Assembly: GCA_965198235.1 (NCBI GenBank) | Contig: OZ240248.1 | Span: 1,440,001 to 1,504,000 of the forward strand | Reading direction: 5' to 3' | DNA length: 64,000 bases | Origin: Candidatus Poribacteria bacterium | GTDB lineage: Bacteria > Poribacteria > WGA-4E > WGA-3G | Part shown: positions 29,412 to 36,736 of the stretch, piece after piece | Layout: each line of letters begins with the position of its first letter | Numbering within the stretch: the stretch's first letter is position 1 | Notes under the pieces: model-generated | Seen by the model: only the letters and a program-made list of their open reading frames with translations | Told to the model about the DNA's origin: nothing | Database searches by the model: none | Position numbers and translations under genes: made by a program

Positions 29412-31691
29412 ATGCCACGACTCACTGAACAGGAACAACAAGAAATCATCCGCTTTATTGAGGCAGACAAACCGCTGCCCGACAAATACCGCTTCCTGCT
29501 GTTTGAAGACAAACGCGAGGTAGAACTCGTCTGGAACGGCAAGACCAACGAGGTCTGCAACATCGTCCTCCCCTTTCAGACAATTGAGCACGTAGACGAA
29601 CCCCGCTCCGAAAAACTTTCCGATGACAATCTGCAACTCGATTTGTTTGACACACGTGGCCGCCAACGCAAAGGTTGGACGAACAAGTTAATCTGGGGCG
29701 ACAACAAACTGGTTTTGTCATCACTCAAGAACGGACCGCTGCGCGAGGAGATTGAAGCACAAGGCGGGCTCAAATTCATCTATATCGATCCGCCTTTTGA
29801 CGTGGGCGCGGATTTTTCTATGGATATCGAAATTGGTGGTGAGACGCTCACCAAAAATCCAAACATCCTTGAAGAAATCGCCTATCGCGATACTTGGGGT
29901 AAGGGTACGGATTCGTTCCTTACAATGATTCACGAAAGGTTGATTCTGATGCGAGATTTACTGACAGAGGATGGCAGTATCTATGTGCATTGTGATTGGC
30001 GGGTGAATTCATCACTTCGGTTTGTATTGAATGAAGTCTTTCATGATTCAAACTTCGTCAATGAAATTATCTGGAGACGTAAGCAAGCGCAGGCATGGTC
30101 TTCTGACCAGTTTGGTATAACGAATGATACTTTATTATTATATGGGAAATCGAGCGACCGTGTTTTCAACCCAACTTATTCAAAGGATGACGATAACACA
30201 GAAAAATACATTAAAGAACGATTCAAATTTGATGATGGAGACGGTCGGAAATATATGAAGTCTCCTTTAGTGAACCCTTTAGTGCGTCCCAATCTGCAAT
30301 ACGAGTTTCATGGTGTAAAGCCTCCCAAGACTGGTTGGTTGTATAAAAAAGAGCGCATGGAGGAAATGTATCAGAACAACGAGTTAGTAATGCCGGATAG
30401 TCCAAACGCTCGAATATACCGAAAAATTTATCTTGATACCTATCCGGGGCAGATGGTTCAGAATGTGTGGGTTGATATCCCTATAGTTAATCCAATGGCC
30501 GATGAACGAGTCGATTATCCCACCCAAAAGCCGGAAGCCCTACTCGAACGCATCATTAGGGCCTCCTCCAATGAAGGCGACCTCATCGCCGACTTCTTCT
30601 GCGGTTCTGGCACCACTGCCGCCGTTGCTGAAAAACTGGGGCGCAAGTGGATCGCTACAGACCTTGGCAAATTCGCCATCCACACCACGCGCAAACGAAT
30701 GATCGGAGTCCAGCGTCAACTAAAATCAGATAGCACAGACTACCGTGCCTTTGAGATTATTAATCTCGGTAAATATGAACGTCAACACTACATCGGTGTT
30801 AATCCAAATCTCCGCGAGGAGGAACAGCAGAAACAATTGATAGAAAGGGAAAAGGCGTTCATTGACCTCATCCTATGTGCTTATGCTGCTGAAAAGACTG
30901 AGGGGTTTACCAGTTTTCAGGGGAAGAAAGCCGGTAGACTGATAGCAATCGGTCCCGTCAATTTACCGGTAACACGCCTACTCATAGAGGAGATCATTCT
31001 TGAATGCCGCAAACATCAAGTTACTCGGGTAGATATTCTCGGCTTTGAGTTTGAGATGGGTCTATTTCCTAACGTGTTAGATGAGGCGAAAAGCAGGGAC
31101 ATCAACATCGCACCGAAATACATCCCCGCTGAAGTATTTGACAAGCGTGCAGTGGAGCAGGGGCAGGTGGTATTTCACGATGTAGCGTTCATTGAAGTCA
31201 AACCTCACATCAAGGCAGGTGGGAAAGGTAAGCCCGCGACAGTAGCGTTAGAATTAACCGATTTTTCCGTCTTTTACTCACAAGATTCCATCTCCAACGC
31301 TGAGCAGACACTCAAGAACAGGAGCAGTCGCATCGTGTTGGAAAAAGGGCAAGTCGTAAAGGTGAGCAAAGATGCAGATGGGATTGTCAGTCGAGACATA
31401 TTGACTAAAGAATGGACAGACTGGATCGACTATTGATCAGTTGATTTTGACTTTGAGAGCAAACACGAGATTATCCGCATGCAAGATTCAAAAATGGGTG
31501 AGTGGGAAGAACAGTGGACAGGCGACTACGTCTTTGAAAATGAGTGGCAAAGTTTCCGCACTAAGAAAGACCGCTCATTGGAATTAACCAGCGTCGCCCA
31601 CGAATGCACACCCGGCCGCCGCAAACTTGCTGTCAAGGTCGTTGACATCTTTGGCAATGACACAATGACGATTGTAGAGGTATCGGTGTGA
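29412..31691 (+). pseudogene. mod: type III R-M Mod (N6-adenine MTase) interrupted by an in-frame TGA at 31434-31436
   Basis: IYIDPPF, YPTQKPE, DFFCGSGTT; reading continues in frame DWIDY*SVDFDFES...KVVDIFGNDT to 31691. Confidence 0.85.
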
Positions 31692-31733: not shown

Positions 31734-32087
31734 GTGTCAGAAAATATTAGAATATCCATGTTTGAAGTTGTAGGCAACCCTTTCTGCGTTGCTTCTGATG
31801 ACGGTCAGAAGGTTTATGACTATCTTGACACCGCTCTTAAAGCGGATCGAGAGGTAGCACTTTCATTTCGCAACGTCACAGCACTGACGGGTGCTTTCCT
31901 GAACGCTGCGGTAGGTCAGTTATATGGCACATTCAATGAAGAAAAAATCCATTCTCTGTTGAAAGTTGAAGATGCTGAACAAGACGATCTGGTACTATTG
32001 AATAGTGTTATCAATAAAGCCAAGTTGTACTTCAAAGATCCGAAAAGATATAACCAAGCGATTCGGGAAGCCATAGAGGATGGATAA
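31734..32087 (+). CDS. STAS-like domain protein (DUF4325)
   Basis: DGQKVY...VALSFRNV..LT.AFLNAAVGQLY; SD AGGAG. Confidence 0.75.
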   Translation: MSENIRISMFEVVGNPFCVASDDGQKVYDYLDTALKADREVALSFRNVTALTGAFLNAAVGQLYGTFNEEKIHSLLKVEDAEQDDLVLLNSVINKAKLYFKDPKRYNQAIREAIEDG

Positions 32088-32216: not shown

Positions 32217-32324
32217 TTCGGTAATCATAGAAGACCGATTCCCAATCAAGAAACGTCTGTAATCCTGTAAATCACAGAATCACAGAAATCACAGTTCAGA
32301 CAATGGACCCTCCACATTACCGAA
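32217..32324. mobile_element. MITE-like element with TTCGGTAAT TIR
   Basis: ttcggtaat...attaccgaa, same ends as 21848-22000; interior has aatcacag microrepeats ending in ttcagaca. Confidence 0.6.
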
Positions 32325-32437
32325 TTAAAAAATTAATCTTCATACAGTTTACGCTACAAAACCCCGCGGATACCCAACGGCTTTCAATAAACCGAAGACC
32401 GGCTACCATTCCTCAACTTTGAAGAGCTGTTCTATTT

Positions 32438-34303
32438 TCACGTAAACAGTGGAAATTCGAGTTGTTGTGGTTCTGTCTGTGTAGGCTTCGGTTGCCGGAT
32501 CTGTTCTGTTTCAGTTTTAGGCACGGTGTATGTTTCCGGTTTTTGCATCGGTTTCGGATAGGAGCCTGTATCTTTTCTATATCCATACCTATATCCATCG
32601 CGATGTCTGAAGCGTCTTAATTGGCTGAGGTTACCTGATTCACGTTTGTCTTTTGTATCTTTATAAAAATTATTTACACGGCATTCTTGCGGTTTCCCTG
32701 GAGGGGTCTTCTCAAAGCAGTTAATTACACCTTCTACGCGCCCGCTCTTCTTTGTTAGATAGACATGGTCGCCTCTGTGAAAACCGTTAATGTGAGATGC
32801 TTTGAAAATTTTCTGACGGAACCCTGGAAATTTTCCGCCTTTGGTACACCCAAAGCGATATTTGAGGTTATTCCGGCTTCCGTAGCCAAGGGCATGTATC
32901 ACAAATACAGGGACTTTCGCACAGGCTTCTTGTGGTGTGTTTTCAACGGCGGCTGCATCATAATAATGTGTCTTCGGCAGCCCAGCACTGTTACGGTTGT
33001 AGGCTGTCCGTCCTCCAGAACCACAAAATACAGGGAGTTGTGTCGCCTGTAGGGTCTCTACAAGTTTCCACCGAATCGTATTCACTGCCGCCGCGTCTGA
33101 TAACGAGAATCCGCGCTTTGATTTTGATAATACCGTCTTTTTTATTTTCTTTGCAATCTCTGGATGCCGCTTTTCTAATTCTTTACCCCAAAGTCCACCC
33201 TTTTTCTGGTTACACGTGTGACATGCCATCGTGAGGTTGTCGAGCCTGTCTGAACCGCCAAGGGCTTGTGGATAAATGTGTTCTATCTCTAAACGCTGCC
33301 CACCTTTGCCACAATAAGCACATTTTCGCTTCGTTAATTCCAATAAATACTCTCTCTTTTCACGTCTATATAAGGGCCCCCGTTGATATTCAATACCGTG
33401 AATATCGGGGTTCTCTAACAGTTGCATATCAAACTTGACTTCCTCAATAGCTAGACGTTTTATCGAATAGAGATTTGTCAATCTGCGTGTCCATGTTTCT
33501 AAGTTGAATACACGAGACATAAGACTCGGTGCAATCCAGCCGTTATCAGCACGTTTTTTGTGTCCAATACGCTCACGTTTCCAACGATACTTCGTGGGTG
33601 GCGTATTCTTCAACTTTGCTTTCAGGGCACTTCGTAAGAACCCTAACGTTTTCGACATCAGGGCATCGCGTTCCGCTTTTTTATCACGCATCATGATATG
33701 GTGAATCAGCTCGTCTCTTGTAAGACGTGCGACCTCTGCGTTCGTCATCTCAGGCATGAATTCTTTACGGGTACGGGATTTGATACGAGTATAACGATAC
33801 CGCTTGTCTTTCAATTGCGCAGACGACACTCTCACAAACTTGTTCTTCGTTTTTGACGAGTCTTTCGATAGATCGGACTCGTCTTCAGCACGTCTGTACC
33901 TCCATCCTTCAGTTTCCGTGAGAACAGGCACTTTACGTCCACGATTCGCCCAGCGCGCTGGCCGGTGTCGTAAATTTCGGGTTCTCCGCCCACGACGAAA
34001 GCCCGCTCTCTCTTTCAAAGCCTTCTTTATCTGGATCCCCCGATGATGAAGTTCTGCCTTCATGACAATGTTGTTCTCATTGTCTAAAATCGCAATCCCT
34101 GATGTTCGGGAACCTGGGTCCCAATTTAGAGAATAAACACCCGTTACGATCTCGTCCTCTGGTATCACGCGCTTGAGGATAATTGCAAACGGATATTTGC
34201 ACCATACTGCCGCCTCCCCATCACGAAGCAAACGACGGGCAACTGCGGGATGGCAGGGTTCCAAGACTTTCTTTTCAGAATCTATAACCGCAACTTTAAA
34301 CAT
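32438..34303 (-). CDS. iscB: IscB RNA-guided endonuclease (OMEGA), enlarged and CRISPR-associated
   Basis: PLMP-like VLEPCHPAVARRLL...YPFAIIL; RuvC-I WDPGSRTSG; bridge helix RRGRRTRNLRHRPARWANR; GWIAPSL; RuvC-II IEEVKFD...GIEYQRG; HNH CAYC...EIEHIYP...GGSD..DNL..ACHTCN; RuvC-III THYYDA. Confidence 0.95.
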   Translation of the reverse strand: MFKVAVIDSEKKVLEPCHPAVARRLLRDGEAAVWCKYPFAIILKRVIPEDEIVTGVYSLNWDPGSRTSGIAILDNENNIVMKAELHHRGIQIKKALKERAGFRRGRRTRNLRHRPARWANRGRKVPVLTETEGWRYRRAEDESDLSKDSSKTKNKFVRVSSAQLKDKRYRYTRIKSRTRKEFMPEMTNAEVARLTRDELIHHIMMRDKKAERDALMSKTLGFLRSALKAKLKNTPPTKYRWKRERIGHKKRADNGWIAPSLMSRVFNLETWTRRLTNLYSIKRLAIEEVKFDMQLLENPDIHGIEYQRGPLYRREKREYLLELTKRKCAYCGKGGQRLEIEHIYPQALGGSDRLDNLTMACHTCNQKKGGLWGKELEKRHPEIAKKIKKTVLSKSKRGFSLSDAAAVNTIRWKLVETLQATQLPVFCGSGGRTAYNRNSAGLPKTHYYDAAAVENTPQEACAKVPVFVIHALGYGSRNNLKYRFGCTKGGKFPGFRQKIFKASHINGFHRGDHVYLTKKSGRVEGVINCFEKTPPGKPQECRVNNFYKDTKDKRESGNLSQLRRFRHRDGYRYGYRKDTGSYPKPMQKPETYTVPKTETEQIRQPKPTQTEPQQLEFPLFT

Positions 34304-34324
34304 AAATGTTCTCTCAATAAGGTA

Positions 34325-34542
34325 TAATTCTTCTACTAAAAGCAGAAGATATTGACCTTTAGAGGTAAAGTGAGCCTCGTCAATGTTATCCGTGCTTTAT
34401 TCAGGGTTGACAGCGTATTGTAAAGCCATTTACATTGCACCCGACAGAGCTTTAGGCTGGCGTCATGCACCCAAAGGTGTCTATATCACCGGTAACGTAG
34501 TTGAAAACTTAGACTAGATACCACTTGAGCATGGAGTTGCAA
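34325..34542 (-). ncRNA. omegaRNA (HEARO-like) scaffold beginning with an anti-repeat (tracrRNA-like)
   Basis: Minus strand reads, in order: CTAGTCTAAG, AACTACGTT, ATAGACACC..TGGGTGC, GCCAGCC.AAAGCTCTG, AACATTGACGAGG, CACTTTACC, then hairpin TCTTCTGCT-TTT-AGTAGAAGA. These match my recollection of conserved omegaRNA blocks, directly upstream of iscB. Ends are approximate. Confidence 0.85.
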
Positions 34543-34636
34543 ATTTGCCGTCAATCTCCCGGTGAATTCACACTATCGGAGGTCGACAGCAAAATTCTTA
34601 AGAGGATTGCCGGTGACACCTACATTCTTGCATAGC

Positions 34637-35210
34637 GTTGCAACGCAAACATGCCCAAGCGATAACTGCATCTCGATGTGATAGTCGCGCCCGACATCAG
34701 AGTTGCAACGCAAACATGCCCAAGCGATAACTCACAACGATGTAGATCGCTTTCTTCGGCTGATAGGGTTCCAACGCAAACATGCCCAAGCGATAACTGA
34801 CGATATGATTAGACAAACTGGCAATGTAATCACGTTCCAACGCAAACATGCCCAAGCGATAACTCTTTCTCTGGATCGTATTGGGAATCGAGGTACGTAG
34901 GTTGCAGTTCAAACAGGCCCATAGGTGTCAATTTTAGAAAATATATCCGTCTTTTATGGGACTTGCGTGCTATATCTTGTCTGAATCACGGATGACACGG
35001 ATTTCGCAGATTTCGCAGATTTTGGAGTTCTCTGTCCGTGCGAGGTCTTTAGTAAGTGTTGGGTTTCACTGAGTATGTCTGTGATGGCAAGTATATGAAC
35101 GGTGGCTTAGTTTTCTATGAGTTGAAAGCATTTGTGGTTATCCGTTCAACCCAACCTACGATACTAAATTGACACCTATGGTTGCAACGCAAACATGCCC
35201 AAGCGATAAC
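34637..35210 (-). CRISPR. CRISPR array, 30-nt repeat GTTATCGCTTGGGCATGTTTGCGTTG(C/G)AAC (minus strand), 4 unique spacers, interrupted by a MITE
   Basis: Full repeats at 34637-34666, 34702-34731, 34768-34797, 34834-34863 and 35181-35210; partial degenerate repeat at 34901-34920 (16/20); spacers of 35, 36, 36 and 37 nt, mutually unrelated. Confidence 0.95.
34920..35180. mobile_element. composite MITE with CATAGGTGTCAATTT(T)AG TIRs inside the CRISPR array
   Basis: cataggtgtcaattttag at 34920 and ctaaattgacacctatg ending at 35180; same TIR end at 22268-22285; interior holds two other repeat families. Confidence 0.78.
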
Positions 35211-35294
35211 GAGCGTAGGGGGCAAGGCTGGTTCTATAATGGACACTACACATCACCGTATTTGTGAAAGCAGTTGAGACCTCCCAAATCCAAG

Positions 35295-36224
35295 CTACCC
35301 CCAAACGCCGATGTCCTGTAATATCGACTTTTTGATTTTGCAGACCATCGTATACGCCGGATCGAAGACGTTCCCCATATCGTATTCTACCGCTTGCCCT
35401 AAAAGGATGTGTGCGGCACGTTTTTCTAAACCGAGTTCACCCAACCACCGAAGAAGTTCCGTCGTGGCGTGTTGCACCGCTTGATCCAACGGACGTGCAT
35501 TTCCCGCTGCTAAAATATAATCGCTGTTTTCCGCACGGGGCCAGTTGATGCTTTTTCCTTTAAGCACTTCAACCGTAAACTGCACATCGAAAGAGATTTC
35601 GATCCCAGTCCCGACGATTTCGCCATCACCCTGCACGGCGTGTCCATCACCGAGATGAAAGAGCCCACCGGGGACGAAAACCGGGAAGTAGACGGTAACA
35701 CCCTCCTTGAAACCGCGATAATCCATGTTTCCGCCGTGTGTAGAGGAAGTCGCCGTTGAAATCGCTTGTCCTCGCGGCGGTGCCACCCCGAAACATCCCA
35801 CCATCGGTTCAAGCGGCAGCGTGAGTTTACCCAACTGCGTCACTGAGGTCATCAATGTCGCCGTCCATTTTTCCACATCGACATGCCACTCTGCGAGACC
35901 ACGACCACCTTCCGGCATCTCGGACGCTACATAGTCGGGATCGAGGACATTGGGAGCAACGGTCATAGCCGTCCGTCCGATCGAGCGATTCGGAACTATC
36001 CGATCGAAATGAACTGCTAACGTATCCCCGGGTTCTGCCGATTCAATATAAAAAGGACCTGTTTGTGGGTTGCCTCTTTCAGTTACCTGTGTATCGTTGG
36101 CATCGTAGCCCGCGTTATCCACGGTTGTTGTGAAAACGGTGTCGCCGCTTTCAATATGGAGCACCGGTTCGTGCGCGCCAATTGCTGTATAATAGACCGT
36201 CGGTTCAAAGTGATGTGTCGCCAT
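35295..36224 (-). CDS. acetamidase/formamidase family protein
   Basis: NPQTGPFYIESAEPGD, GGNMD, GDGHAVQGDGEI.GTGIE. Confidence 0.92.
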   Translation of the reverse strand: MATHHFEPTVYYTAIGAHEPVLHIESGDTVFTTTVDNAGYDANDTQVTERGNPQTGPFYIESAEPGDTLAVHFDRIVPNRSIGRTAMTVAPNVLDPDYVASEMPEGGRGLAEWHVDVEKWTATLMTSVTQLGKLTLPLEPMVGCFGVAPPRGQAISTATSSTHGGNMDYRGFKEGVTVYFPVFVPGGLFHLGDGHAVQGDGEIVGTGIEISFDVQFTVEVLKGKSINWPRAENSDYILAAGNARPLDQAVQHATTELLRWLGELGLEKRAAHILLGQAVEYDMGNVFDPAYTMVCKIKKSILQDIGVWG

Positions 36225-36313: not shown

Positions 36314-36736
36314 AATTTTGCTTTATTTTTTCCAAGATAAAAGAAACGTCAAAATTCCGAAGCATCGTTGAGACTTAAACAGAAACCTGCCCGTAATGGA
36401 ATGGAGGGGTTTTTGCTTGGGTGTTTCTTTGCCCAGGAGCAATAAATTAAAAAGCAATGTGAATAATATATCACGTTCGAGAGGCATCGTCAAGATAAGA
36501 ACATTAACCCATACGACGATTGGATATTGAGCGGTTTTCATAGTCGGGTTCCCTAAAATCCGCGAAATCTGTGTAATCCGTATAATCCGCGATTCAGACA
36601 ATTAACACCCGACACGAGCCACTTAATCCTTAAATTTCATGTAATCATGCCGACTTTGCTGACTGCTGATGGAAACCGACAGCCAATTACTGATAACTGA
36701 TAATCGGATACCTCTACAGGTCTCCCGAAAAATGAT

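What the first reader, a model, noticed from the sequence alone, without database searches (positions are those of the whole stretch)
34517..34666. Anti-repeat at the 5' end of the omegaRNA forms a lower-stem/bulge/upper-stem duplex with the CRISPR repeat
Seen: minus-strand 34542->34517 reads UUGCAAC-UC-CAUGCUCAAGUGGUAUC. The repeat RNA is GUUAUCGCUUGGGCAUG-UUUGC-GUUGCAAC. Repeat nt 1-17 pair with the last 17 nt of the anti-repeat at 16/17 positions (13 Watson-Crick, 3 G-U, one U-U). An asymmetric 5x2 internal loop follows, then a 7-bp GUUGCAA/UUGCAAC stem. Three of the four DNA-level differences in the lower stem remain paired as G-U only on this strand, which supports both orientation and selection on RNA pairing. 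The anti-repeat runs straight into the CUAGUCUAAG block, where the 3' strand of the first omegaRNA stem normally lies. Inference: the repeat has replaced the 5' strand of that stem, so any spacer-repeat unit could load as a crRNA with a 5' guide, as in Cas9.
Basis: partly seen in the sequence, partly recalled or inferred. Interest (0 to 1): 0.9.

Follow-up and report, generated by a model that had tools for sequence, protein, structure and literature searches.

The report
IscB guide RNA pairs CRISPR repeat
A small Cas9-ancestor nuclease (IscB) in a sponge-symbiont genome has a guide-RNA segment that base-pairs with the repeats of the mini-CRISPR array next to it, a rare but already described hybrid, and here the array seems to borrow the spacer-loading signals of a separate type I-B CRISPR system.

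Summary
Minus-strand 34542-34517 pairs with the 30-nt repeat at 16 of 17 positions plus a 7-bp stem. This combination is unique in the window. It covaries with the repeat in 12 related Poribacteria loci (90% of cells paired against 29-42% in slid controls).

The gene downstream is an IscB (NCBIfam NF040563 above cut-off; Cas9 and Cas9d models below cut-off). The RNA is a HEARO/omegaRNA.

The interpretation needs correction in three respects:
- The anti-repeat is not the 5' end of the RNA. The terminal repeat, a conserved 94-nt linker and the anti-repeat fold in cis as the first omegaRNA stem.
- Trans loading of upstream units is not shown.
- No canonical RNase III was detected in 41 Poribacteria genomes.

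CRISPR-associated IscB with a repeat/anti-repeat duplex is already published (Altae-Tran 2021, known here through citing papers; DelIscB 2025).

The new element is that the linker resembles a type I-B CRISPR leader:
- It has the same junction motif and hairpin as leaders beside cas1b.
- Variant repeats lie at the ORF-distal end.
- One spacer is shared with a I-B array in the same genome.
- Long IscB arrays occur only in genomes with Cas1b.

I infer that spacers are loaded in trans beside the scaffold. This window's genome lacks Cas1b, and its array is short and interrupted.

The parts
32438..34303 (-). iscB gene, 621 aa. It has an N-terminal PLMP-type domain, a RuvC-I/bridge helix (RRXRR), an insertion of about 135 aa at the REC position (about residues 122-256), RuvC-II, HNH, RuvC-III, a TAM-interaction region and a P/Q/T-rich tail.
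   Evidence: Pfam gives RRXRR at 8e-50 and HNH at 3.5e-11. NCBIfam NF040563 guided_IscB scores 334.2 bits against a cut-off of 175; Cas9d scores 45.2 against 375 and Cas9 30 against 100. The top Foldseek hits are IscB structures. The nearest solved sequence is TbaIscB. The insertion is visible in alignment A2.
34365..34516 (-). omegaRNA (HEARO) core downstream of the anti-repeat. It begins with CUAGUCUAAG.
   Evidence: Rfam RF02033 matches 34587-34365 at 68.4 bits, E 2.9e-13, below the gathering score of 83. The region is conserved in 12 loci.
34517..34542 (-). Anti-repeat, which serves as the 3' strand of omegaRNA stem P1. It has a lower stem (17 nt), a 2-nt bulge side and an upper stem (7 nt).
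   Evidence: establish sequence and pairing. Covariation is shown: in helix 1, 6 of 16 pairs change on both sides; in helix 2, 1 of 8.
34544..34593 (-). Hairpin B of the linker (TTTGCTGTCGACCTCC...GGGAGATTGACGGCAAA). It is homologous to a hairpin in the leaders of type I-B CRISPR arrays of Poribacteria.
   Evidence: helix 3: 91.6% of cells paired, 3 pairs changed on both sides. One search gives the alignment with three I-B leaders. In one search, 55 hits fall as 10 at IscB loci, 27 beside cas1b and 9 beside I-B-type arrays. The 14-mer TTGCTGTCGACCTC occurs once in the 5.17-Mb genome.
34594..34636 (-). Proximal linker: the junction motif GCTAT (34636-34632) directly after the terminal repeat, then a small hairpin-A region.
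   Evidence: [G/C]CTAT follows the terminal repeat in 10 of 12 IscB loci. GCTAT follows the leader-proximal repeat of 2 of 3 I-B arrays examined.
34637..34863 (-). CRISPR array of four 30-nt repeats (34666-34637, 34731-34702, 34797-34768, 34863-34834) and three spacers of 35, 36 and 36 nt. The two ORF-distal repeats carry a C-to-G change (GTTGGAAC).
   Evidence: No spacer has a second match in the genome beyond 14-17 nt.
34901..34920 (-). Degenerate remnant of the 3' part of a repeat (GGGCCTGTTTGAACTGCAAC), followed by a 37-nt spacer.
34921..35180 (.). MITE-like insertion with terminal inverted repeats (CATAGGTGTCAATTT / AAATTGACACCTATG). It splits the array.
   Evidence: One search gives 35 BLAST hits in the genome, this copy among them. 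In one search many RNA-library contigs have loose ends at 34919 and 35181-35182.
35181..35210 (-). Isolated perfect repeat copy (R0) on the far side of the insertion.

Best explanation
This is a CRISPR-associated IscB locus. The segment 34542-34517 is the 3' strand of the first stem (P1) of the IscB guide RNA (omegaRNA/HEARO), and the 5' strand of that stem is a CRISPR repeat.

Shown. The pairing is real, unique in the window and maintained by compensatory change across a Poribacteria clade. The terminal repeat, a 94-nt linker and the anti-repeat fold in cis, so the spacer next to the terminal repeat sits exactly where an omegaRNA guide sits.

Inferred, step 1. The linker is a CRISPR leader read backwards. 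It carries the junction motif and the hairpin of the leaders of type I-B arrays in the same phylum.

Inferred, step 2. A co-resident I-B Cas1-Cas2(-Cas4) inserts new spacers at the repeat next to this linker. The array therefore grows at the omegaRNA-proximal end, and the newest spacer automatically becomes the cis guide.

Inferred, step 3. The array is transcribed towards iscB, antisense to the I-B direction. This puts the spacer 5' of the repeat handle and places the I-B PAM side of the protospacer where an IscB TAM lies.

Open. Older units may pair with the anti-repeat in trans, but this is undetermined, and any processing is probably not by a canonical RNase III.

This window. The genome lacks Cas1b, and its array is short, carries variant repeats and is split by a MITE-like element. 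This copy is probably no longer acquiring spacers, while iscB itself keeps all catalytic residues.
For: Pairing and uniqueness.

Covariation on 12 loci:
- 90.0% of 432 cells are paired, against 29.2-42.4% when partners are slid by 1-3 columns.
- 10 pairs have changes on both sides; the shuffle mean is 4.6, and 0 of 500 shuffles reach the observed value.

Cis fold: recovered in 12 of 12 single-sequence folds.

HEARO match, with the anti-repeat at the model's P1 3' strand.

IscB identity. Catalytic D62, E287, H342, N365, H446 and D449 are invariant in 12 sequences. In the 95-sequence alignment H342, N365 and D449 are invariant and D62, E287 and H446 are at 90% or more.

Arrays lie upstream of the gene in 9 of 13 Poribacteria loci, plus the window.

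Leader homology:
- GCTAT at the repeat junction and the hairpin TTGCTGTCGACCTC...GAGGTCGAC are found in I-B leaders of three genomes.
- A 100-nt IscB linker searched in 176 genomes gave 55 hits. 10 are at IscB loci. 27 lie within about 1 kb downstream of a Cas1b gene (coordinates compared). 9 lie beside I-B-type arrays only. 9 are unresolved.
- The operon cas3-cas4-cas1b-cas2-leader-array was typed (Cas1b 453 bits against a cut-off of 304).

Polarity:
- Variant repeats sit at the ORF-distal end in 7 of 10 arrays.
- No array has its variants only at the proximal end.
- In L001 a G-to-A change marks the four most proximal repeats, as expected if each new repeat copies the terminal one.
- The only spacer similarity between sister arrays (L001 and L002) is at the distal end.

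Shared spacer: one 37-nt spacer of the IscB array of L007 recurs at 36 of 37 positions, with the same ends and co-oriented with respect to leader and repeat, in the roughly 170-repeat I-B array of the same genome.

Foreign origin of spacers: one L004 spacer matches 36 of 36 a phage-like contig of another genome. Its neighbours hit PHROG baseplate hub/tail lysozyme at 7e-17 and tape measure weakly.

Distribution:
- Arrays with 12 or more repeats occur in 5 genomes, and 5 of 5 have Cas1b above cut-off, against 73 of 176 in the phylum.
- Among 5 genomes with 3-7 repeats, 2 have it.
- The window's genome does not have it.
Against: - No experiment and no read-level RNA data support the model. RNA-library contigs cover the locus and bridge repeat, linker, anti-repeat and ORF, but contigs show no ends, and DNA carry-over cannot be excluded.
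- The shared spacer is 1 of about 130 IscB-array spacers examined. It could come from recombination.
- The two protospacers found give no common flank (TGCTAGAG and CCTGAGAC), so PAM/TAM compatibility is untested.
- One of those two is a perfect match to a chromosomal cohesin/dockerin gene of the same genome. This is awkward for an active nuclease.
- The Cas1b correlation rests on 5 genomes in 4 genera, and kin are not independent.
- The I-B and IscB repeats share only length, ends and about 12-15 of 30 positions by hand alignment.
- Hairpin B could equally be conserved as RNA. cmscan aligns it to the first inner hairpin of HEARO, so the direction of borrowing between leader and omegaRNA is not settled.
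- No sigma-70-like promoter above chance was found for either the array or a separate tracr-like RNA.
Confidence: 0.7

Rival explanations
1. The anti-repeat is the 5' end of a separate tracrRNA-like omegaRNA. Every spacer-repeat unit of the array pairs with it in trans, the duplex is cut by RNase III, and the units load as crRNAs as in type II CRISPR-Cas9.
For: - The duplex geometry (lower stem, bulge, upper stem, guide 5' of the repeat) is Cas9-like.
- Arrays of up to 27 identical repeats with unique 35-40-nt spacers exist in relatives.
- One spacer matches a phage-like contig. This suggests that more than one spacer matters.
Against: - A conserved linker joins the terminal repeat and the anti-repeat, and they fold in cis in 12 of 12 loci.
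- No promoter-like site above chance lies between them.
- No RNase III above cut-off was found in 0 of 41 Poribacteria genomes, and the catalytic-domain Pfam PF14622 is absent from the window's 96%-complete genome.
- Identical repeats are expected from repeat duplication at integration, so they are not evidence of trans use.
Confidence: 0.2
2. Fossil model. An omegaRNA-iscB module once fused to the leader end of a type I-B array, or captured a leader-repeat unit. The repeat/anti-repeat stem is needed only in cis, and the array is now a passive remnant. There is no ongoing acquisition, and the spacers upstream of the terminal one have no function.
For: - In this window the array has 4 repeats plus remnants, variant repeats and a MITE-like insertion.
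- The genome lacks Cas1b.
- Two relatives carry a single repeat with the same linker and anti-repeat (L008 and L010).
Against: - Sister loci whose proteins are 92-93% identical to the window's carry entirely different ORF-proximal spacers.
- Long arrays have 17-27 perfectly identical repeats.
- Long arrays co-occur with Cas1b in 5 of 5 genomes.
- A spacer is shared with the resident I-B array.
All four observations point to active turnover in at least some genomes.
Confidence: 0.12
3. The complementarity is an incidental inverted copy of a repeat, or a transcriptional attenuator for iscB, with no role in guide RNA structure.
For: - By duplex energy alone the site is barely better than the best unrelated site in the window (-30.4 against -29.3).
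- The 3' end of the repeat (GTTGCAAC) is itself a palindrome.
Against: - Compensatory changes occur across 12 loci.
- The anti-repeat has a fixed position at the P1 3' strand of a HEARO RNA.
- The U-U at repeat position 2 is conserved in most loci (by eye).
- A homologous DR/anti-repeat hairpin is part of a working guide in DelIscB (PMC12660989, passages).
Confidence: 0.03

Closest known systems
CRISPR-associated IscB ('CasIscB'), e.g. DelIscB. Sources: Altae-Tran et al. 2021 Science, which is not held and is known here only through citing papers; and Zhang et al. 2025 Nat Commun, PMC12660989, passages read.
   Same: - An IscB nuclease has an upstream ncRNA that contains spacers, repeats and an anti-repeat.
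- The DR/anti-repeat hairpin encloses a loop of about 100 nt. In DelIscB this loop can be replaced by GAAA without loss of cleavage. That fits a loop which is not needed for the RNP.
- There are no adjacent adaptation genes.
   Different: - The protein is 621 aa against 457 aa, with an insertion of about 135 aa at the REC position.
- The clade is confined to Poribacteria in my searches.
- Relatives have arrays of up to 27 repeats.
- The loop here carries the junction motif and hairpin of type I-B leaders. I found no mention of such a link in the passages read or in two literature searches.
- The supplementary figure of the DelIscB ncRNA could not be seen.
Canonical transposon-borne IscB with omegaRNA/HEARO RNA (Rfam RF02033; OgeuIscB structures 7XHT, 7UTN, 8CSZ).
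   Same: - The protein family is the same (NF040563 above cut-off; the top fold hits are IscB structures).
- The RNA core is the same (HEARO E 2.9e-13).
- The topology is the same: guide, then P1 5' strand, inner hairpins, P1 3' strand.
   Different: - The P1 5' strand is a CRISPR repeat present in several copies.
- P1 is 24 bp with an internal loop rather than about 8 bp.
- No TnpA or IS200/IS605 context was seen. The neighbours are an acetamidase, a DNA methylase, a DUF4325 protein and a protease.
- The Rfam score is below the gathering threshold.
[quoted passage not shown]
   Same: - It has a repeat:anti-repeat duplex with lower stem, bulge and upper stem.
- The guide is 5' of the repeat.
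- A REC-position insertion lies between an ARWANR motif and an IAPSL motif. These correspond to the FNNR and LTP anchor motifs described in PMC13180657.
- The nearest solved sequence is TbaIscB (E 4.6e-32).
   Different: - It retains the N-terminal PLMP-type domain and the large omegaRNA.
- The Cas9d and Cas9 models score far below cut-off.
- No separate tracrRNA gene or promoter is evident.
- No RNase III was detected in the host.
Trans use of one adaptation module by arrays of another CRISPR type (for example type III or orphan arrays fed by type I Cas1-Cas2). This is recalled from general knowledge and not checked in a paper here.
   Same: An effector without its own cas1-cas2 depends on a co-resident module. 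The arrays share leader features, repeat length (30 nt) and spacer length (35-40 nt).
   Different: The borrowing effector is an OMEGA/IscB nuclease. The array would be read antisense to the donor system's direction, and the leader would lie inside a guide-RNA stem-loop.

Membership tests
IscB (OMEGA RNA-guided endonuclease) | The sequence matches the curated IscB family model above its cut-off. | tested here: met
   NF040563 guided_IscB (equivalog) scores 334.2 bits against a cut-off of 175, in two stretches split by the insertion.
IscB (OMEGA RNA-guided endonuclease) | Split RuvC with an inserted HNH, an arginine-rich bridge helix and an N-terminal PLMP-type domain. | tested here: met
   Pfam RRXRR PF14239 covers residues 4-125 from profile position 1 (8e-50), and HNH covers 328-369. 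D62, E287, H342, N365, H446 and D449 are invariant in the 12-sequence alignment. In the 95-sequence alignment H342, N365 and D449 are invariant and D62, E287 and H446 are at 90% or more. The N-terminal LEPCHP segment is conserved. The name 'PLMP' is taken from PMC10734217.
IscB (OMEGA RNA-guided endonuclease) | An omegaRNA (HEARO) is encoded directly upstream on the same strand. | tested here: met
   RF02033 matches 34587-34365 on the minus strand, E 2.9e-13, 68.4 bits. This is below the Rfam gathering score of 83 because the first stem is not matched.
IscB (OMEGA RNA-guided endonuclease) | Residence in an IS200/IS605-type transposon with TnpA and transposon ends. | tested here: not met
   The six neighbouring ORFs scanned have no transposase. 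The omegaRNA 5' side is a CRISPR array instead of a transposon end. The literature also reports that many IscB genes lack TnpA (PMC9755519).
CRISPR-associated IscB (CasIscB) | A CRISPR array lies next to the omegaRNA, and an anti-repeat is complementary to the repeat. | tested here: met
   The same arrangement is found in 9 of 13 Poribacteria loci.
CRISPR-associated IscB (CasIscB) | RNA-guided DNA cleavage programmed by array spacers. | not testable with these tools
   This needs a biochemical or interference assay.
Cas9 / type II-D Cas9d | The sequence matches Cas9 or Cas9d family models above their cut-offs. | tested here: not met
   NF049971 Cas9d scores 45.2 bits against 375. TIGR01865 Cas9 scores 30 bits against 100. 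Both match the HNH region only.
Cas9 / type II-D Cas9d | A REC lobe replaces much of the RNA scaffold, and the PLMP domain is lost. | tested here: not met
   An insertion of about 135 aa is present at the REC position. In the AF2 model residues 188-230 are helical with pLDDT above 90, while the whole model has mean pLDDT 73.5. The N-terminal domain and the full HEARO core are retained.
crRNA:tracrRNA system (type II mode of guide biogenesis) | A separately transcribed tracrRNA and RNase III processing of the repeat:anti-repeat duplex. | tested here: inconclusive
   No promoter-like site above chance lies between the terminal repeat and the anti-repeat. RNase III TIGR02191 is above cut-off in 0 of 41 genomes, and PF14622 is absent from the window's genome. 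RNA-library contigs cannot show RNA ends.
Functional CRISPR array (adaptive) | Identical repeats, unique spacers of uniform length, polarity with degenerate repeats at one end, and a leader. | tested here: met
   One search shows, for example, 26 of 26 and 27 of 27 identical repeats, spacers of 35-40 nt, and variants at the ORF-distal end in 7 of 10 arrays. A leader-like junction and hairpin are shown. In this window the array is short and interrupted.
Functional CRISPR array (adaptive) | Adaptation genes (cas1-cas2) available and spacers of foreign origin. | tested here: inconclusive
   No cas1 lies near any IscB array. The window's genome has only one Cas1, in a 546-aa frame 1.26 Mb away with a different 37-nt repeat. 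Relatives with long arrays have a type I-B Cas1b elsewhere in the genome. One spacer matches a phage-like contig, one matches a I-B spacer and one matches a host gene.

The most novel reading that the evidence does not exclude
An IscB nuclease has plugged itself into the spacer-acquisition machinery of an unrelated type I-B CRISPR system. A I-B-type leader sits inside the loop of the first stem of its guide RNA, so Cas1b-Cas2 writes each new spacer directly next to the omegaRNA scaffold. The array is then read backwards, which turns the newest I-B-style spacer into a cis single guide and puts the I-B PAM on the TAM side. This would be a natural, still-segregating intermediate in the birth of a type II-like adaptive system from an OMEGA element. 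Within one phylum it would show single-repeat, mini-array and long-array stages, together with a growing REC-position insertion.
Probability: 0.45. Interest if true: 0.85.

Novelty: new variant of a known kind. Interest (0 to 1): 0.62.

Why it matters
How Cas9 systems acquired arrays, tracrRNA and adaptation from transposon-borne IscB is known only in outline.

This clade offers graded stages in related genomes:
- one repeat;
- four repeats;
- 12-27 repeats;
- a REC-position insertion ranging from absent to about 145 aa.

It also offers a concrete, testable mechanism for how an OMEGA nuclease could obtain new guides without its own cas1-cas2. The mechanism is a borrowed type I-B leader placed between the repeat and the anti-repeat.

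If confirmed, it would explain why the loop of the DR/anti-repeat hairpin is dispensable for cleavage in the characterised CRISPR-associated IscB. It would also predict a rule linking the donor system's PAM to the IscB TAM.

Practically, the family adds compact IscB variants of 510-620 aa with natural REC-like inserts and a simple repeat/anti-repeat junction for single-guide design.

Tried and rejected
1. Duplex energy as a chance test. The anti-repeat (-30.4) is only marginally better than the best unrelated 40-mer (-29.3) among 25,584 windows. I relied instead on colinear pair counts and covariation.

2. Spacer targets in GenBank phages. The arrays of L004 and L007 gave no match in 50,697 records in distant mode. 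The three window spacers have no second site in their own genome.

3. Array of L005 against 176 genomes. Only other arrays were hit, and no protospacer.

4. PAM/TAM. Two protospacers give no shared flank. A search with 8 kb of the I-B array to collect I-B protospacers was swamped by repeat-to-repeat hits in 97 of 176 genomes and gave no usable protospacers. It did serve to locate I-B-type arrays.

5. Promoter and terminator scan of 34200-35350. It found 3 promoter-like sites against 2.1 expected, none on the minus strand in the linker, and no terminator-like site.

6. RNA evidence. Four metatranscriptome runs from two studies hold the locus, one at 0 differences. All are contigs that break at the repeats. 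They show no RNA ends, no strand and no level, and DNA carry-over cannot be excluded. Parts without cover are not interpreted.

7. My first idea was that the repeat is simply the duplicated ancestral P1 5' strand of the omegaRNA (note 2). I weakened it once the linker proved to be I-B-leader-like. The single-repeat loci L008 and L010 may be collapsed arrays rather than ancestors. The direction of descent is not settled.

8. The fold of the REC-position insertion was not compared on its own. Foldseek aligns the whole multi-domain model with low TM (0.25-0.29), so only family-level similarity is claimed.

9. Literature.
- Altae-Tran 2021 (PMC8929163) is not held. What it shows is taken from passages of citing papers and from recall.
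Supplementary Fig. 1a of PMC12660989 (DelIscB ncRNA) and the supplementary tables of PMC13180657 may bear on whether a leader-like loop or these Poribacteria loci were already noted.
- Searches for 'Poribacteria' with 'IscB' found 0 papers. Searches for 'IscB' with 'spacer acquisition', 'leader' and 'Cas1' found 7 papers, judged by title and abstract start to be reviews, surveys or a genome catalogue. Neither search found a description of this link.

Full report
**What is at the coordinates**

On the minus strand the window holds, in order:
- an isolated 30-nt repeat (35210-35181);
- a 260-bp insertion;
- a repeat remnant;
- four repeats with three 35-36-nt spacers (34863-34637);
- a 94-nt linker (34636-34543);
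- about 200 nt of structured RNA;
- a 621-aa ORF (34303-32438).

The ORF is an IscB. Pfam gives RRXRR at 8e-50 plus HNH. NCBIfam guided_IscB scores 334 bits against a cut-off of 175, while the Cas9d and Cas9 models score 45 and 30 bits against cut-offs of 375 and 100. The best Foldseek matches of an AlphaFold2 model (mean pLDDT 73.5) are IscB-omegaRNA complexes, and the nearest solved sequence is TbaIscB.

The RNA matches Rfam HEARO (the IscB omegaRNA) at E 2.9e-13.

**The observation**

The sequence and the pairing are exactly as described: 16 of 17 pairs (13 Watson-Crick, 3 G-U, one U-U), a 5x2 internal loop and a 7-bp stem. Cofolding returns that structure at -30 kcal/mol, also in the context of the full RNA.

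Energy alone does not set it apart from the best chance site (-29.3). The colinear pattern does. Outside the antisense of the repeats themselves, only two sites in the window reach 16 of 17, and only this one also has the upper stem.

**Relatives and covariation**

A scan of species-representative genomes found 44 related loci. 13 of them come from records titled Poribacteria, with 39-93% protein identity.
- Nine of those 13, plus the window, have an array directly upstream, with 4 to 27 repeats.
- One locus has no upstream DNA on its contig.
- Two have a single repeat-like segment followed by the same linker and anti-repeat (L008 and L010).
- One has a reduced RNA without them (L009).

I aligned the stretch from the terminal repeat to the start codon in 12 loci and named three helices: the lower stem, the upper stem and the long linker hairpin.
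- 90.0% of 432 cells are standard pairs, against 29-42% when partners are slid by 1-3 columns.
- 10 of 39 pairs show changes on both sides, 6 of them in the 16-pair lower stem.
- None of 500 shuffles reaches the observed covariation score, percentage paired or number of double changes.
- The measure 'further pair types' is weaker, with 31 of 500 shuffles reaching it.

The sequences are related, so the shuffles overstate significance. The slid controls are the fairer comparison.

Two loci (L005, L032) have a two-hairpin insertion within the 3' strand and pair only at the two ends of the lower stem. They account for many of the unpaired cells.

**Correction of the anatomy**

In 12 of 12 loci, the single-sequence minimum-energy fold of the stretch from the terminal repeat through the anti-repeat closes the two in cis around the linker. 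The linker itself forms a small hairpin and a long conserved hairpin. This is the topology of the HEARO 5' domain, a stem enclosing two hairpins.

The anti-repeat is therefore internal, not the 5' end. The spacer next to the terminal repeat sits where an omegaRNA guide sits.

Published work on a CRISPR-associated IscB, DelIscB, describes the same arrangement. A DR/anti-repeat hairpin has a loop of about 100 nt that can be replaced by a tetraloop. The authors state that it is unknown whether the RNA is processed into crRNA- and tracrRNA-like parts (PMC12660989, passages). Other papers also mention that some IscBs are CRISPR-associated and that some carry REC-like insertions (PMC10734217; PMC13180657). 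The kind is therefore known.

**The linker looks like a CRISPR leader**

While looking for spacer targets, I found that one spacer of the IscB array of L007 recurs at 36 of 37 positions, with identical ends, in a second array of the same genome. That array has about 170 repeats of 30 nt. It lies directly downstream of cas3, cas4, cas1b (453 bits against a cut-off of 304) and cas2, and its degenerate repeat is at the far end. It is a type I-B array with its leader next to cas2.

When read on the strand on which the shared spacer has the IscB sense, the I-B array and the IscB array have the same layout:
- old end first;
- repeats beginning GTTT;
- the newest repeat last;
- then GCTAT;
- further on, a hairpin TTGCTGTCGACCTC...GAGGTCGAC. 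This is 14 of 14 identical to window 34593-34580 over its 5' arm and is present once in the window's genome.

Two further I-B leaders from genomes with IscB arrays show the same hairpin, and one of them also shows GCTAT.

I searched a 100-nt IscB linker in all 176 Poribacteria genomes held and obtained 55 hits.
- 10 are IscB loci.
- 27 lie within about 1 kb downstream of a Cas1b gene listed.
- 9 lie beside I-B-type arrays listed.
- 9 I could not place.

In every case that I checked, the array precedes the hairpin in the orientation of the query.

**Polarity and turnover**
- Within each IscB array the repeats are identical, for example 26 of 26 and 27 of 27.
- Variants sit at the ORF-distal end in 7 of 10 arrays.
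- Two arrays have no variant, and one has a single variant in the middle.
- In L001 a G-to-A change marks the four repeats nearest the linker. This is what duplication of the terminal repeat at each integration would produce.
- Sister loci whose proteins are 92-93% identical to the window's share no ORF-proximal spacer. The only spacer similarity is at the distal ends of L001 and L002.

**Spacer origins**
- One L004 spacer matches 36 of 36 a site on an 80-kb contig of another genome. The neighbouring ORFs hit PHROG baseplate hub/tail lysozyme (7e-17) and, weakly, tape-measure families.
- One L012 spacer matches perfectly a cohesin/dockerin-type gene on another contig of its own genome assembly, with 89-91% matches in two relatives. 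This looks like a self-targeting accident and counts against an always-active nuclease.
- GenBank phages gave nothing.

**Distribution**

A repeat pattern found IscB-type repeats in 13 of 176 genomes. Cas1b above cut-off is present in 73 of 176.

| IscB-type repeats per array | Genomes | With Cas1b above cut-off |
|---|---|---|
| 12 or more | 5 (in 4 genera) | 5 |
| 3-7 | 5 | 2 |
| 1 | 3 | 1 |

The window's genome has only one Cas1, in a 546-aa frame. It lies beside a different array of 56 repeats of 37 nt, 1.26 Mb away. The numbers are small and the genomes are kin, so this is suggestive only.

**Processing**

RNase III (TIGR02191) is above cut-off in 0 of 41 Poribacteria genomes. The weak hits are a dsRNA-binding-like domain in a 177-aa frame without a nuclease domain, and PF14622 is absent from the window's genome. 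The search tool warns that absence in incomplete genomes is not proof, but the window's genome is 96% complete in 2 contigs. A Cas9-style RNase III route is therefore doubtful.

RNA-library contigs from two studies cover the locus and bridge the terminal repeat, linker, anti-repeat and ORF. They cannot show ends, strand or true expression. No promoter-like site above chance was found.

**Protein**

Between an ARWANR motif and an IAPSL motif lies an insertion. These are the anchor positions that PMC13180657 calls FNNR and LTP. The insertion is absent from the array-less relatives. It is about 50 aa in L004, L032 and L005, about 135 aa here and about 145 aa in L007. In the model, residues 188-230 form confident short helices. 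L011 and L012 have arrays without this insertion, so the link is loose.

A database search found 611 relatives at E <= 1e-10 among the 8000 candidates scored. None of the 120 listed carries a name.

**Verdict**

The duplex is real and selected.

It implies that spacers enter beside the scaffold through a borrowed adaptation module.

That part is inference from comparative data, and I put it at roughly even odds. In this particular genome the module is missing and the array looks decayed.

Noticed in passing
window 34921-35180: A MITE-like element of about 260 bp with terminal inverted repeats splits the IscB array. BLAST gives 35 hits across the genome, this copy among them. RNA-library contigs from other contexts end at both of its borders.
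   Followed up: partly
window 32295-32328, 35231-35264 and 36593-36626: Three copies of a 34-nt direct repeat (TTCAGACAAT..., 68-71% alike) were found. The first two lie just outside the iscB stop codon and just outside the outermost repeat, so they bracket the whole IscB-array module. They may be part of a dispersed repeat family or may mark the limits of a mobile unit.
   Followed up: no
window 29412-31436 and 31734-32087: A 674-aa N6/N4 DNA methylase and a DUF4325 (STAS-like) protein lie just downstream of iscB. This may be a small defence neighbourhood.
   Followed up: no
own genome G000:C1:2732009-2738066 (outside the window): This is the only Cas1 of the genome (546-aa open frame, the length of the NCBIfam Cas4g/Cas1g fusion model). 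It lies next to an array of 56 repeats of 37 nt (CTTGAAACGAAAAGCATCTCGATTACGAGATTGAAAC). Typing it as I-G is my inference and was not tested.
   Followed up: partly
41 Poribacteria genomes: No canonical RNase III was detected. Only a conserved protein of about 177 aa with a dsRNA-binding-like domain was found. If real, this is unusual for bacteria and worth a separate look.
   Followed up: partly
L012:2835-2869, matching L128:3025-3060: A spacer of an IscB array matches perfectly a cohesin/dockerin/FlgD-Ig secreted-protein gene on another contig of the same genome assembly. The gene lies next to a formylglycine-generating enzyme gene in a relative. This is an apparent self-targeting spacer.
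   Followed up: partly
L053, L056, L071 (metagenome contigs), upstream of the IscB genes: These are other CRISPR-associated IscB loci of a different design. Repeats of about 28 nt comprise the short P1 5' strand (GTCAC) plus the first inner hairpin of the omegaRNA. The single 3' partner is only about 6 nt (GGTGAC). L068 and L095 have 37-nt repeats ending in TTGCAAC. These look like independent births of arrays.
   Followed up: no
L009:5466-6237: An array of 11 repeats of about 37 nt lies downstream of an array-less Poribacteria IscB gene. It is a different repeat family.
   Followed up: no
L005 and L032, within the anti-repeat: A two-hairpin insertion of about 50 nt splits the 3' strand of the lower stem. 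Only repeat nt 1-7 and 14-17 can then pair, yet these loci have arrays of 13-21 repeats.
   Followed up: no
L011:4001-5182: The IscB reading frame of the four-repeat locus ends after 393 codons, although the tblastn match runs on to about 449. The cause may be a frameshift or a decaying gene.
   Followed up: no
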